From Pocillopora damicornis (lineage: Eukaryota): DNA of 64,000 bases. Position numbers: made by a program. Within the stretch, counting starts at the first letter, position 1. Every line of letters starts with the position of its first letter. Shown in pieces: positions 18,001 through 64,000 of this stretch. The stretch is from the NCBI RefSeq assembly GCF_003704095.1, contig NW_020845565.1:62001-126000 (forward strand), read 5' to 3'.

Positions 18001-21000
18001 GGTGCAATAAATTGCACAATTGTAGCCCCATAATGGGTGTTAAAATGGAAGTAAACTCATCCCCTGAATTAGTATGTTGTACCTGGACCACAGAGGCTAA
18101 GTTTCCGTCCACTGCCAAACATTGCTCTCTTAAAAATAAAGCAATTTTTAAACCTTGGGAATCCTTAACAATTAAAGCATGTCTTTTTCCACCAATAGTA
18201 CTACAAAAAGCATATTTCATGTTACAACTCTAACCCCAGTTCGTTACTTTATTAATACTTTTATCCATCGAACTCTTAGATTGCAAAGTTTCCGAAATGC
18301 CACAGCTGCGTAACAATGACAATCAAATACTCTTGCACTATGTGCAAAGGATGCTGGATCCACTGGAGAAACAGACAAAGAAAAATTGGCGCTCTGTTGG
18401 GCAAATCTTGAATGTTTCAGAGGAAGACTTGGACTTGATAGAAATTGACTACAAAGCAGGAAGAAGTCCTACAGTTAGTCTTATTGATAAATTGAGCACC
18501 TTTCCAATAGTACCCTCAGTGAGAAGCTTTGTAGAAGCTCTCGTTTCTTGCAACAGGTATGATGTGGCCACCAATATTTGCAACTGGCCATGGGAGTTAC
18601 GTACTATACAATGAGGGAAATTATTTAGCACACTTGAAACAAGAAATAAGTAACTGGCTGTAACCTGCAGCTGTTGGGTCTACAGAGAGCCCCCCTCCAA
18701 AAAAAAAATTCCCATTAACCTCTGCACAAAACAGGGCACATAGAACATGGAACTAACTATAGACTGAAGGCTTCTAGAATCTTAATATGTTGTAAGCCAG
18801 GGAAAATGAAGGGACAATTTTTCTTATACGGTATGCTGAAAGCCACTTTAAAAACACAAAGTTAAGTTGCAGGCAACTTTAAAAAATTATTACCTTCCCA
18901 GTTTCTTATTCAAAGAGTCATATTCAGACTTGCAAATGGCAATGCCATGTTTTACACAGCTAACTTTGCCCTGCATTATATTATGCTGGCTTTCTCTTAA
19001 TCTTTTAATGACATTCTTGACATTAATCCTCTCCTATCAGCATCTTCNNNNNNNNNNNNNNNNNNNNNNNNNNNNNNNNNNNNNNNNNNNNNNNNNNNNN
19101 NNNNNNNNNNNNNNNNNNNNNNNNNNNNNNNNNNNNNNNNNNNNNNNNNNNNNNNNNNNNNNNNNNNNNNNNNNNNNNNNNCAGAAAGGAAAGAACCATA
19201 AAATTCCAGAAAGGAAGTTGGTCACAGCGCATATAATAAAATGGTTCAAAACCAAAATATACCACAAAGGAAATATTGGTCACCGAGCATACACAATAGT
19301 GGTTCAAAACCATTTAAAACCTAGGATGTGCCATTAAATTTTTTAAAGAGGAGCTTTGTGAAAACAAGGACATCAGTAAGAAGAAACAGTTACATACACA
19401 TAATTGTTATTAGTCACCACAACGAGTGGGTCATGTTCCTTGTAAATATTTTCAGGAAAAGAGTAGGTTGTGACTGAATATTTATAATTAGGACTTTATT
19501 TACTAGGTAATACTATTTAACAACAACCCAAAAGCCAACATTTCAATTTTGAATATTTCAAGGGCTTTTGGTAAAGAATCTTTGATCAGACTTTGATGGT
19601 TATATGTAGTTTTAAAATGTTTCCATTTATAGCTTTTGTGTGTCAAGTGTCATGATCAAAATTTATTTTCCTGTTATAAATGATGATGCTGTATCTGGTG
19701 ATAAATTATTACAAAATGAAATGTAACTCTAAGTGATATCTTTTTTATGAAAGTAGATGTATTTTTCTTGATGCAACATTATTTATGCTATTAAGTACGT
19801 GTAACTATTTACAATAAACTATTTTAAAACAGTAGATTATTTTTATATATGTGCTATAAAAGGCATGGTAAGTACATCTTTATTCTGCTTACAATGTCAA
19901 GTGGTAAATGTTGATACCAAAGAAAAAAAAATAAAAAAAAATAAATTCAGGTTCTGGAATCAGTGCCTGCACGGGCTGTATATCCACTGACCCAAGTAAG
20001 TGGGAACCTCTTGCTTTCTGCATCTTTTGATAACAGATGTGAAAGTTGGGACATTGGCAAGTCAGAACAGCTGTTATACAGGCAGGACTATATATTACTG
20101 TCAATGGTACACAAGCAAGTGAACTACAAAAATACTGTTTGAAAATTTTATTATCACTGTGAATTAATCAGTATACAGAGAAGAAATCAGGCCCAGTCTT
20201 GGTTGCAAGACATTCCAGTTACACAGCTCTTGTTCAAAGACAACCTGGGAAAGAAGATAAAAAGATCACAAGTGCAGTGAATCCCATTTTGGCAAAGTTA
20301 ACAGAGTTAGGAAGTGTGATTTTAATAGAAGAAAGCCTCAGTATTAATGTAGTCTTCAGAAGTAAATATCAGTGGATTATGACTGAATATATTAAGTCAT
20401 CACTGGCTTTCAACTGGGGGTTTGAACACTGGGCATTATCTTCCAAACTAAGGATAATACCATCATGATCCACAACCTTTTCCATGACATTTTTTCGCTG
20501 TTTTCCATTGTAAACAATCAGGGCTTGGCTGAAAATACTGCAAAAATGATTATTTACTCAATATATTTCTCACCTTGCTAAATGTATTCTGAGAAAATTA
20601 TTGTCCATCTGTTCCCATGATTTCCATGGCAGAATCAAATTTGATGAACCTAGAAAAATATGAATACAACTTTCATTTTCCTTTTATTTTTCTTTTTGAC
20701 CAAAGCCCCCTTTACAATAGAACTTGAACTCTAAGAGAGGCAACTGCTCTGGTTTTCCACAAACTTTTAGTCTTCAGGATATGCAAACACAATGCAAATA
20801 CAATAATTCAGGGCGTGAAATTGATTTTTTTTCTGATAGCCACTTGGCTCCTAGATTATTCAAAGTGGTAGCCAATTAAAAAAAAGTTGGTTGTCATTTT
20901 CAAAGTCAAACAAACCCTTTTTTTTACACTGTCATCGTTCTAGAAATTAAGTTAGGGAAAAGATCTTTAACGTACTACAAAGTGGACAATAGAATGGATG

Positions 21001-63000: not shown

Positions 63001-64000
63001 TTAGTGGTCAAATAACTTACTCTTAGGGGTGATTTACATCCGATCTGAGAAGCTGTATCTTGGTATTTTTCAGAATCTTGTAGGTAGTTAATCTTCATCA
63101 TAAACCAATTAGAATATTTCGGTAACTTCAGGGTTGTGCTCTAACAGAGCGCGGGTTCTACATGCACAGGCGACTGGCTTTTGTTTTGTGTGGCTGATAA
63201 AACTTTGCTTTTATGAAAGCTTTTAGAGCTGAGTATCCCAGATTTCTAAGACTTTGTAGGTATTTTTGGACCATCTTTGGAGGCGTTTTTTTTTTAACTA
63301 CGCATCTTTTCCATAGCTACAATTTGGGCTCTTTCTAGACAGAACTGTCTCTTGCAAATTAAATGACCTAAATATTGTTTATGTTGTAGGCACAATGGCA
63401 ACATTTTATTGGACGGAGAAGGCCATATTATCCATATCGACTTTGGCTTCATTCTTTCGTGTTCTCCTCGAAACTTAGGTTTCGAAAGTTCCCCCTTTAA
63501 ACTCACGCACGAATTTGTAGAGGTAACGTCATTTTGTCCTTCCCATTCTCGTTATCTTTATTTTGTGTTCTAGATTGTATTGAGTAATAAACGATTTCTG
63601 TTCCATTTGAAGGTTATGGGCGGAATTGACAGCGACATGTACAACTACTTCAAAATTCTGATGCTTCAGGGCTTCTTAGCCGCGCGAAAGAACATGGACA
63701 AATGTCTTCAGATAGTGGAGATTATGCAAACAGGTACATGATTGGGTTTGCCCCTTTTCTCATAAGAATCTTAGCACCAGAGTTCGTATAGAGTGTTGAA
63801 TTCTTGAAAGAGTACGGAAGTATCAAAACTAATTTTAAAGACGTGGGAAAAGTATTGATCCTTCGTGCGAGTCAGGAAGAAAAGCAATGATGCTATTGTT
63901 TTTTTGTTTTTTTTCGCTGAGAGTTTTGATTCGCGCGACGGAGTTCCCAACAAAACAGGGACTGCTCGTAGTCTAAACTCTTGTGGAGAAGGGGTTCTCT

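What the first reader, a model, noticed from the sequence alone, without database searches (positions are those of the whole stretch)
20130..63733. Five consecutive genes map to human MHC-paralogon regions 1q21-25 and 9q33-34
Human locations are GAS5 1q25, HSPA5 9q33.3, COP1 1q25, WDR5 9q34.2 and PI4KB 1q21.3 (U24 host RPL7A 9q34.2). These regions are established paralogues of the MHC. The window looks like a piece of the ancestral proto-MHC linkage group, here adjoining an immune/stress receptor cluster.
[Added by the scan's program, not by the reader: the finding's places include an assembly gap (unread letters, written N; its length is only estimated) at 24924 to 25055, 31148 to 31247, 33350 to 33449, 34540 to 34639, 39533 to 39542. 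Whether the letters on both sides are continuous or in frame is not known: test that first.]
Basis: partly seen in the sequence, partly recalled or inferred. Interest (0 to 1): 0.65.

Follow-up and report, generated by a model that had tools for sequence, protein, structure and literature searches.

The report
Coral gene block with ancient linkage
A stony-coral DNA segment carries a snoRNA cluster and the genes BiP, COP1, WDR5 and PI4KB side by side, and most of their human counterparts lie in two regions related to the MHC, which is an ordinary example of very old gene linkage and not a special immune locus.

Summary
The gene order is real. From 20.3 to 63.8 kb the window holds seven same-strand box C/D snoRNA candidates, then BiP/HSPA5 (+), COP1 (-), WDR5 (-) and PI4KB (+, cut by the window end). 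The DNA is from a Pocillopora-like stony coral (99% to P. verrucosa BiP and PI4KB exons).

Paper passages put HSPA5, WDR5 and RPL7A at 9q33.3-q34.2, COP1 and GAS5 at 1q25, and PI4KB at 1q21.2-q21.3.

Three points weaken the proto-MHC reading:
- PI4KB lies outside the current chromosome 1 block, 1q23.3-q25.3. In two amphioxus assemblies it sits on a contig of different length from BiP.
- "GAS5" is only a snoRNA cluster. One of GAS5's ten snoRNA families is matched, and none of its neighbours.
- No MHC anchor gene family is in the window.

Two 100-N gaps hide COP1 coding sequence. BiP-COP1 adjacency crosses a gap, but BiP and PI4KB are five locus tags apart in Oculina and share a contig in Nematostella.

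Verdict: conserved synteny of a known kind, partly fitting the proto-MHC group. Low interest.

The parts
20325..20414 (-). box C/D snoRNA candidate of no assignable family
   Evidence: Only sub-threshold Rfam matches (best SNORD91 33.6 bits, cut-off 51). C box and D box visible in alignment A2.
21710..21782 (-). SNORD24 (U24) snoRNA, copy 1
   Evidence: Rfam RF00069, 60.3 bits, gathering score 41.
22798..22871 (-). snR60/Z15-type (human U80/U77 clan) box C/D snoRNA, copy 1
   Evidence: RF00309 45.9 bits (cut-off 41) and ceN111 51.8 bits (cut-off 43). Equivalence of RF00309 with human U80/U77 comes from the table in PMC3511168.
23177..23250 (-). snR60/Z15-type snoRNA, copy 2 (below Rfam cut-off)
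   Evidence: RF00309 34.7 bits, ceN111 38.4 bits. Aligns with copy 1, boxes kept.
23790..23867 (-). snR60/Z15-type snoRNA, copy 3 (below Rfam cut-off)
   Evidence: RF00309 38.8 bits, cut-off 41. 5' guide region conserved with copies 1 and 2.
24431..24508 (-). SNORD24 (U24) snoRNA, copy 2
   Evidence: RF00069, 57.4 bits, cut-off 41.
25622..25707 (-). box C/D snoRNA candidate of no assignable family
   Evidence: Sub-threshold only (snoR26 30.4 bits, SNORD79 26.5 bits). C and D boxes visible.
24924..25055 (.). assembly gap inside the snoRNA cluster
   Evidence: N run. Flanks are non-coding, so no reading frame can be tested.
26706..26757 (+). pair of ERSE-like motifs (CCAAT-N9-CCACG) in the BiP promoter
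   Evidence: The only 2 matches in the window at up to 1 mismatch, one of them exact, 120-170 nt before the BiP ATG. The motif consensus is recalled.
26878..30635 (+). BiP/HSPA5 gene, 5 coding exons, complete
   Evidence: Pfam HSP70. PDB BiP 526 bits against 409 for HSPA2. KDEL end. Signal-peptide exon and GT donor. 669 of 669 residues of P. verrucosa BiP map.
31148..31247 (.). assembly gap between the 3' ends of BiP and COP1
   Evidence: N run. The join is supported indirectly: in Oculina patagonica BiP and PI4KB are locus tags G002145 and G002140 on one contig, and in P. verrucosa they share one contig.
32369..42395 (-). COP1 (RFWD2) gene, incomplete because of gaps at 33350-33449 and 34540-34639; a 10-N gap at 39533-39542 sits at an intron start
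   Evidence: PDB COP1 only, 4 of 4 hits. Partial RING match. Colinear tblastn to Nematostella COP1, with residues about 447-502 and 553-623 unmatched next to the gaps. Donor before the 10-N gap. Start codon at 42395.
44731..50834 (-). WDR5 gene, at least 10 coding exons
   Evidence: PF25175 pieces cover profile positions 2-296 except about 155-169. PDB WDR5 E 1.7e-35. Start codon at 50834 and stop after ...KSDS.
52315..63762 (+). PI4KB gene, at least 17 coding segments; the last ~53 residues lie beyond the window
   Evidence: PF21245 34.6 bits, cut-off 27. PDB PI4KB 79 bits against PI4KA 45. Residues 1-748 of the 801-residue P. verrucosa protein map.
3211..18611 (.). four TNFR-like death-domain receptor genes (context, not part of the synteny block): - strand 3219-5533; + strand 5276-8443, 10059-12241 and 15913-18611
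   Evidence: Death domain above cut-off in 4 of 4 ORFs. TNFR_c6 below cut-off in 2 of 4 ectodomain ORFs. Inverted duplication, arms 3211-5342 and 5590-8451.

Best explanation
This is a gene-dense stretch of a Pocillopora-like stony coral genome. A probably non-coding multi-snoRNA host locus is followed by four housekeeping genes: BiP, COP1, WDR5 and PI4KB.

Their closeness is a remnant of ancient chromosome-scale linkage. BiP, COP1 and WDR5 belong to the linkage group whose vertebrate descendants, after two genome duplications and reciprocal gene loss, include human 1q23-q25 and 9q33-q34. These are two of the four MHC-paralogous blocks.

PI4KB probably belongs to a different bilaterian linkage group. 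It would then sit next to WDR5 because of chromosome fusion and mixing on the cnidarian side, or because of a split on the bilaterian or chordate side.

Nothing in the block is immune-specific, and no function binds the genes together.

Shown: gene identities, order and strands, effects of the gaps, human map positions, and co-location in Nematostella, P. verrucosa and Oculina.

Inferred: membership of a particular ancestral linkage group, and the history of PI4KB.
For: Gene identities.

Host organism: 99% identity to P. verrucosa PI4KB-like (P0004) and BiP (P0130).

Human positions.

Human MHC-homologous blocks are given as 1q23.3-q25.3, 6p21.33-p21.31, 9q33.2-q34.3 and 19p13.2-p13.11, all corresponding to one amphioxus chromosome.

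Linkage in other cnidarians:
- Nematostella COP1, PI4KB and BiP all report a longest contig of 17,363,018 bases. Chance is about 0.4% for 15 equal chromosomes (the count of 15 is recalled).
- P. verrucosa PI4KB and BiP both report 31,359,385.
- Oculina PI4KB (ACROYT_G002140) and BiP (ACROYT_G002145) both report 48,979,667 and are five locus tags apart.

PI4KB as an outsider: it maps to 1q21.2-q21.3. In amphioxus its contigs are 13,780,118 against 20,681,859 for BiP (B. floridae x B. belcheri) and 17,983,721 against 25,385,209 (B. floridae x B. japonicum).
Against: - Only four protein genes bear on the claim, and the rest of the scaffold could not be examined.
- No anchor family of the MHC paralogon is in the window. 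I read ORFs of 45 residues or more (60 or more below 27.3 kb; + strand only above 52.2 kb) by eye, and 50 ORFs went to Pfam.
- The positions of COP1 and WDR5 in amphioxus or any other bilaterian were not obtained.
- The contig-length test is indirect. The amphioxus hybrids hold two parental haplotypes, so unequal lengths could in principle be two versions of one chromosome, although the ratios do not fit that.
- One reconstruction splits the classical proto-MHC chromosome into seven proto-vertebrate chromosomes. 'MHC linkage group' therefore depends on the definition used.
Confidence: 0.62

Rival explanations
1. The whole five-gene block, PI4KB and the snoRNA cluster included, is an unbroken microsyntenic fragment of the pre-bilaterian segment that became the MHC paralogons.
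For: - All human counterparts fall in 1q21-25 or 9q33-34, which older work counted as MHC paralogues (1p31-1q31 and 9q32-34.3, as quoted).
- The two identifiable snoRNA families have human hosts in the same two blocks: U24 in RPL7A at 9q34, and U80/U77 in GAS5 at 1q25.
- BiP and PI4KB lie five locus tags apart in a second coral.
Against: - PI4KB lies outside the narrow chromosome 1 block.
- In 2 of 2 chromosome-scale amphioxus hybrids, PI4KB is on a contig of different length from BiP.
- In amphioxus the proto-MHC genes are scattered along a whole chromosome, so macrosynteny is kept but microsynteny is not.
- No anchor gene is present.
- snoRNA-host relations are reported as evolutionarily unstable.
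Confidence: 0.15
2. The block was assembled within Cnidaria or Anthozoa by rearrangement. Its match to human 1q and 9q is chance plus the reader's selection among many scanned windows.
For: - Only four informative genes.
- One of them (PI4KB) already disagrees.
- The finding was picked after the fact from a scan.
Against: With 3-10% of human genes in the named blocks, at least 3 of 4 hits has a probability of about 1e-4 to 4e-3 (the fractions are rough recollection). Conserved macrosynteny between invertebrates and human is documented.
Confidence: 0.15
3. The adjacency is a scaffolding artefact. Gaps join pieces that are not neighbours in the real chromosome.
For: - Five N runs lie in the region.
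- BiP and COP1 are separated by one of them.
- COP1 lacks about 127 residues of coding sequence at two gaps.
Against: - COP1, WDR5 and PI4KB are joined by uninterrupted sequence (42395 to 44731, and 50834 to 52315).
- COP1 exons on both sides of each internal gap are colinear and on one strand.
- BiP and PI4KB are five locus tags apart in Oculina and on one contig in P. verrucosa.
Confidence: 0.05

Closest known systems
Proto-MHC / MHC-paralogon linkage group (amphioxus chromosome corresponding to human 1, 6, 9 and 19; placozoan proto-MHC)
   Same: Three of four protein genes (HSPA5, WDR5, COP1) have human orthologues inside the blocks 9q33.2-q34.3 and 1q23.3-q25.3. As in amphioxus, the genes have little or no link to immunity.
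   Different: - No anchor families are present.
- PI4KB is outside the narrow block.
- The block spans 37 kb of a cnidarian genome, whereas the amphioxus genes are scattered over a whole chromosome.
- I saw the placozoan paper (Suurvali et al. 2014) only as a reference title. Its gene list stayed unread (not held).
Conserved macrosynteny / ancestral linkage groups of animals
   Same: Genes linked in a cnidarian map to paralogous human segments, and the same genes share a chromosome-sized contig in Nematostella. The existence of 24 bilaterian and 29 bilaterian-cnidarian-sponge linkage groups is quoted.
   Different: No assignment to a named linkage group could be made. The gene tables are in supplements, which are closed.
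Human GAS5 (multi-snoRNA, 5'TOP non-coding host gene at 1q25)
   Same: Several same-strand box C/D snoRNAs spaced 0.3-1.4 kb apart in a stretch without recognisable coding ORFs. One family (snR60/Z15, RF00309) corresponds to human U80/U77, which are GAS5 snoRNAs.
   Different: - Only 1 of GAS5's 10 snoRNA families is matched above threshold.
- SNORD24 is hosted by RPL7A in human.
- The flanking genes differ: DARS2 and ZBTB37 in human, a TNFR-like gene and BiP here.
- Exons, transcript and a 5'TOP start were not established.

Membership tests
MHC paralogon / proto-MHC linkage group | Human orthologues lie in the four paralogous blocks (1q23.3-q25.3, 6p21.33-p21.31, 9q33.2-q34.3, 19p13.2-p13.11, as given) | tested here: inconclusive
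   3 of 4 protein genes are inside: HSPA5 9q33.3 and WDR5 9q34.2, COP1 1q25. PI4KB at 1q21.2-q21.3 is outside. It is inside only under the older definition, 1p31-1q31.
MHC paralogon / proto-MHC linkage group | Presence of anchor gene families with copies in several of the four blocks (such as PBX, NOTCH, RXR, BRD, PSMB, tenascin, C3/4/5; list partly recalled, partly seen) | tested here: not met
   I read ORFs of 45 residues or more (60 or more below 27.3 kb; + strand only above 52.2 kb), and 50 ORFs went to Pfam. Only HSP70, RING/WD40 (COP1), WDR5, PI4K, TNFR_c6 and Death domains were found. HSPA5 is an ER paralogue of the MHC-linked HSPA1 genes. That it is not their duplicate from the genome duplications is my recollection.
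MHC paralogon / proto-MHC linkage group | The same genes share one chromosome in a slowly rearranging outgroup such as amphioxus | tested here: inconclusive
   BiP and PI4KB are on contigs of different length in 2 of 2 chromosome-scale amphioxus hybrid assemblies. COP1 and WDR5 were not obtained for amphioxus. In Nematostella, COP1, PI4KB and BiP share one contig length.
MHC paralogon / proto-MHC linkage group | Statistical excess of such orthologues along the whole scaffold or chromosome | not testable with these tools
   Only the 64-kb window is on hand. Genome contigs holds bacteria and archaea only. Supplements with gene tables are closed.
GAS5 | Hosts SNORD74-81, SNORD44 and SNORD47 in its introns (ten SNORDs; the full list is recalled) | tested here: not met
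   Only the snR60/Z15 family, equal to U80/U77, is matched above threshold, with two further copies below it. SNORD79 matches are far below cut-off (30.0 and 26.5 bits against 47). The other family present, SNORD24, belongs to RPL7A in human.
GAS5 | Positional orthology (between DARS2 and ZBTB37) | tested here: not met
   The neighbours here are a TNFR-like death-domain gene and BiP.
GAS5 | Spliced non-coding 5'TOP transcript | not testable with these tools
   0 of 10 ORFs in 19.9-27.3 kb reach a Pfam cut-off, which fits a non-coding host. No transcript data are available.
BiP/HSPA5 | HSP70 fold, closest to the ER form, with signal peptide and C-terminal KDEL | tested here: met
   526 against 409 bits; KDEL; hydrophobic N-terminal exon, read by eye.
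COP1 (RFWD2) | RING finger, coiled coil and C-terminal WD40 propeller; closest to COP1 | tested here: met
   Second half of the RING at 22.7 bits, below the cut-off of 27 because the exon is partial. PDB hits are COP1 only. The gene is colinear with Nematostella COP1 over residues 7-659, except for two stretches at gaps.
WDR5 | Seven-bladed WDR5 propeller; closest to WDR5 | tested here: met
   PF25175 in 9 exon ORFs covering profile positions 2-296 except about 155-169. PDB WDR5 124 bits; the next different protein scores 66 bits.
PI4KB | PIK accessory domain plus PI3/4-kinase catalytic domain; closest to the beta form | tested here: met
   PF21245 above cut-off. The catalytic exon scores 79 bits to PI4KB against 45 to PI4KA. 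748 of 801 residues of the P. verrucosa protein map.

The most novel reading that the evidence does not exclude
The snoRNA cluster, BiP, COP1 and WDR5 together are a surviving microsyntenic fragment of the segment that became the MHC paralogons. After the two vertebrate genome duplications its contents were shared out between 1q25 and 9q33-34, snoRNAs included: U24 ended up in RPL7A at 9q34, and U80/U77 (and U76, which took over an ancestral U24 target site) in GAS5 at 1q25. On this reading, snoRNAs would have kept their chromosomal neighbourhood for more than half a billion years while changing host genes. That runs against the prevailing picture of free snoRNA mobility.
Probability: 0.12. 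Interest if true: 0.55.

Novelty: new member of a known kind. Interest (0 to 1): 0.2.

Why it matters
If the linkage is ancestral, it adds a cnidarian data point to the long debate on what the proto-MHC region was. It would support the view that the region was a stretch of ordinary housekeeping, stress and ubiquitin genes long before immunity genes settled there.

As it stands, it mainly shows that a tidy-looking match to 'MHC paralogons' follows from ordinary conserved macrosynteny. One of the four genes already falls outside the modern definition.

The snoRNA coincidence (human hosts at 1q25 and 9q34) is the only part that could teach something new, and it needs whole-genome data.

Tried and rejected
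- **Papers not held.** Ohta et al. 2019, Flajnik and Kasahara 2010, and Suurvali et al. 2014. Their gene lists, which may name these genes, stayed unread.
- **Paper searches that gave only noise.** One search was too broad. One search returned cancer cytogenetics. One search returned no paper with RFWD2, GAS5 and 1q25 together. A curated gene list held none of the six genes.
- **Proto-MHC plus gene names.** This found only a software paper that lists HSPA5 as a single-copy family.
- **Proto-MHC in cnidarians.** 'proto-MHC' with 'cnidaria' gave 8 papers. By title none describes a cnidarian proto-MHC. I opened two of them, the two versions of the Asymmetron paper.
- **Protein-coding snoRNA host, such as RPL7A.** Rejected, weakly: 0 of 10 ORFs in 19.9-27.3 kb reach a Pfam cut-off. 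Shorter exons were not scanned.
- **TNFR-like genes as synteny markers.** Rejected: no PDB relative for the ectodomain, and only a weak RIPK1 death-domain match, E 0.04.
- **Human or contaminant origin of the window.** Rejected: the exons are 99% identical to Pocillopora proteins.
- **Not used or closed.** Structure prediction, complex prediction, the atlas and the representative search were not needed.
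Full report
**What is in the window**

The window has 32-40% G+C, nine N runs and no tRNA genes. I searched the split eukaryotic genes exon by exon. I never built or searched a joined (spliced) protein, so no full-length model of any gene was scored.

**The snoRNA cluster, 20.3-25.7 kb, minus strand**
- Rfam finds SNORD24 twice, at 21710-21782 (60.3 bits) and 24431-24508 (57.4 bits), against a gathering score of 41.
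- It finds one snR60/Z15-type snoRNA at 22798-22871 (45.9 bits, cut-off 41). The same locus also matches the nematode family ceN111 (51.8 bits).
- A laxer search adds two further snR60/Z15-like copies below threshold, at 23177-23250 and 23790-23867. It also adds two box C/D candidates of no assignable family, at 20325-20414 and 25622-25707.
- All seven show C and D boxes in alignment.
- None of 10 ORFs between 19.9 and 27.3 kb reaches a Pfam cut-off.
- This fits a non-coding multi-snoRNA host lying head to head with BiP. No transcript evidence exists.

**BiP, 26878-30635, plus strand**
- HSP70 matches in four exon ORFs.
- The 333-residue exon scores 526 bits to BiP/GRP78 against 409 (HSPA2) and 404 (HSPA1A).
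- The protein ends in KDEL.
- The first exon encodes a hydrophobic leader and ends at a GT donor.
- All 669 residues of the Pocillopora verrucosa BiP map in five pieces.

**COP1, 32369-42395, minus strand**
- One exon hits only COP1/RFWD2 chains in the PDB, 4 of 4.
- Another carries the second half of a RING finger.
- Seventeen segments are colinear with the 663-residue Nematostella COP1.

**WDR5, 44731-50834, minus strand**
- Nine exon ORFs match the WDR5 propeller profile, covering positions 2-296 except about 155-169.
- One exon gives WDR5 at E 1.7e-35 in the PDB. The next different protein scores about half as many bits.

**PI4KB, 52315 to at least 63762, plus strand**
- PIK domain above cut-off.
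- A catalytic exon scores 79 bits to PI4KB against 45 to PI4KA.
- Residues 1-748 of the 801-residue P. verrucosa protein map. The last ~53 residues lie beyond the window.

I saw no other gene between these five units among ORFs of 45 residues or more, read on both strands up to 52.3 kb and on the + strand only beyond that.

**Organism**

The PI4KB and BiP exons are 99% identical to P. verrucosa proteins. The best named relatives of the COP1 exon are Nematostella (69%) and Xenia (63%). The window is therefore from a pocilloporid stony coral. It is not human, and no contig was taken for human.

**The gaps, tested first**

I used the Nematostella COP1 only as a ruler.
- *Gap 34540-34639.* Residues 410-446 end at 34661, and residues 503-513 resume at 34537. 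The gap lies within coding sequence, and about residues 447-502 are absent.
- *Gap 33350-33449.* Residues 507-552 end at 33456, 6 nt from the gap. Residues 553-623 have no match before 624-645 at 32955-32890. This gap also hides coding sequence.
- *Consequence.* The COP1 model is incomplete by about 127 residues. The written length of 100 N is not the real length. I did not fill or look up the missing letters.
- *Gap 39533-39542 (10 N).* It starts 2 nt after a CAG|GT donor, so the exon before it looks whole.
- *Gap 31148-31247.* It lies between the 3' ends of BiP and COP1, so their adjacency rests on scaffolding.
- *Gap 24924-25055.* It lies in non-coding snoRNA-cluster sequence.
- *No gaps.* COP1 to WDR5 to PI4KB is uninterrupted sequence.

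**Independent support for the order**

The protein search tool reports the longest contig that carries each protein.
- P. verrucosa: PI4KB and BiP both report 31,359,385 bases.
- Oculina patagonica: both report 48,979,667, with locus tags ACROYT_G002140 and ACROYT_G002145, five apart.
- Nematostella: COP1, PI4KB and BiP all report 17,363,018.

Seven named taxa appear in both the PI4KB and BiP lists.
- The three cnidarians with chromosome-sized contigs agree.
- Actinostola (475,757 against 323,481) and B. belcheri (5,191,707 against 7,540,027 or 13,447,882) have only small scaffolds and are uninformative.
- The two amphioxus hybrid assemblies disagree. In B. floridae x B. belcheri, PI4KB is on 13,780,118 and BiP on 20,681,859. 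In B. floridae x B. japonicum, they are on 17,983,721 and 25,385,209.
- I dropped Dreissena, because its entry is an HSP70 fusion and not BiP. I also dropped all species that appear in only one list.
- The hybrids hold two parental haplotypes, so this is suggestive and not proof. The two pairs of lengths scale alike (1.23 and 1.30), as expected for two different chromosomes.

**Human positions, from passages of papers (not whole texts)**
- HSPA5 at 9q33.3, WDR5 with BRD3 at 9q34.2, and RPL7A at 9q34.13-34.2 (PMC3774745).
- PI4KB at 1q21.2-q21.3, beside PSMD4 and PSMB4 (PMC2702084).
- SNORD24 hosted by RPL7A at 9q34 (PMC3511933).
- GAS5 at 1q25, between DARS2 and ZBTB37, with ten SNORDs including SNORD80 and U77 (PMC6789762).
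- RFWD2 (COP1) at 1q25 (PMC8097052).

**Is this the proto-MHC?**
- The MHC and its paralogous regions on human chromosomes 1, 6, 9 and 19 are held to descend from one region through two genome duplications (PMC10751288).
- The Asymmetron genome paper finds one amphioxus chromosome corresponding to human 1, 6, 9 and 19. It gives the human blocks as 1q23.3-q25.3, 6p21.33-p21.31, 9q33.2-q34.3 and 19p13.2-p13.11, and notes that older work used wider limits (1p31-1q31, 9q32-34.3). It finds the amphioxus genes scattered over the whole chromosome, with macrosynteny kept but not microsynteny, and with mostly tenuous links to immunity (PMC13012124; preprint section 14).
- Nakatani et al. 2021 go further and call the broad proto-MHC chromosome an artefact that splits into seven proto-vertebrate chromosomes (PMC8302630).

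Against the narrow blocks, HSPA5, WDR5 and COP1 are inside and PI4KB is outside. This agrees with the amphioxus contig lengths.

**GAS5**
- A table in Hoeppner and Poole 2012 equates RF00309 (snR60, plant U80) with human U80/U77. It also shows that the ancestral U24 target sites are split in human between U24 and U76 (PMC3511168). That U76 is a GAS5 snoRNA is my recollection.
- The same paper concludes that snoRNA-host relations are not stable across eukaryotes.
- Here only one of GAS5's ten families is matched above threshold, the neighbours differ, and no transcript is known. The locus works like a GAS5-type host but cannot be called its orthologue.
- It remains a curious fact that the human hosts of both identifiable families lie at 1q25 and 9q34.

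**Chance**

If 3-10% of human genes lie in the named blocks (my rough recollection), at least 3 of 4 hits has a probability of 1e-4 to 4e-3, and 4 of 4 has 8e-7 to 1e-4. So the pattern is not random. But conserved macrosynteny is the known background for slowly rearranging animal genomes, and a window in the 'MHC' linkage group is expected about once per twenty-odd windows. That figure is an inference from the number of linkage groups quoted.

**Surroundings**
- Upstream, 3.2-18.6 kb holds four TNFR-like receptor genes. Each has a cysteine-rich ectodomain exon, a membrane span and a death-domain exon.
- The Death domain is above cut-off in 4 of 4 ORFs. TNFR_c6 is below cut-off in 2 of 4.
- Two of the genes form a diverged inverted duplication (83-93% complementary).
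- They have no close solved relative and no one-to-one human orthologue, so they cannot bear on the synteny claim.

**Verdict**

It overreaches on PI4KB and GAS5, and in implying anything MHC-specific. This kind of conserved linkage is well known.

**Not checked**
- Scaffold-wide enrichment.
- Linkage-group assignment.
- Gene positions in bilaterians other than amphioxus.
- The supplements and the unheld papers that may list these genes.

Noticed in passing
window 26706-26757 (+): Two ER-stress-element-like motifs (CCAAT-N9-CCACG; one exact, one with 1 mismatch) lie 33 nt apart, 120-170 nt before the BiP start codon. They are the only two matches in the 64-kb window. The total count is not above chance (1.64 expected), but the placement is striking. 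The consensus is recalled from mammalian work.
   Followed up: partly
window 3211-8451: Two TNFR-like death-domain genes form a head-to-head inverted duplication (arms 3211-5342 and 5590-8451, 83-93% complementary) centred next to the gap at 5343-5442. The divergence argues for a real palindromic pair and against an assembly artefact.
   Followed up: partly
window 10059-12241 and 15913-18611 (+): Two more TNFR-like death-domain genes, making four in 16 kb. The death domains are above the Pfam cut-off, but there are no close solved relatives. This looks like a lineage-specific receptor expansion in a coral.
   Followed up: partly
window 21710-21782 and 24431-24508 (-): The two SNORD24 copies differ in their guide regions. 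A published table shows that the ancestral U24 sites are divided in human between U24 and U76. The two coral copies may likewise have divided the targets. The rRNA sites were not checked.
   Followed up: no
window 50834-52315 and 25707-26878: Two head-to-head gene pairs with short shared upstream regions: WDR5/PI4KB (about 1.5 kb between start codons), and the snoRNA cluster/BiP (about 1.2 kb). These are possible bidirectional promoters.
   Followed up: no
window 46029-46100 and 46400-46560: Long trinucleotide runs in WDR5 introns, read as poly-Q/V and poly-N/L in the ORF listing.
   Followed up: no
window 32369-32419 (-): The last matched COP1 exon stays open for 36 codons past the conserved ...SQGTIKV end. 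The Nematostella protein has only 4 more residues. The true 3' end of the coral gene, whether a final small exon or a longer tail, is unresolved.
   Followed up: no
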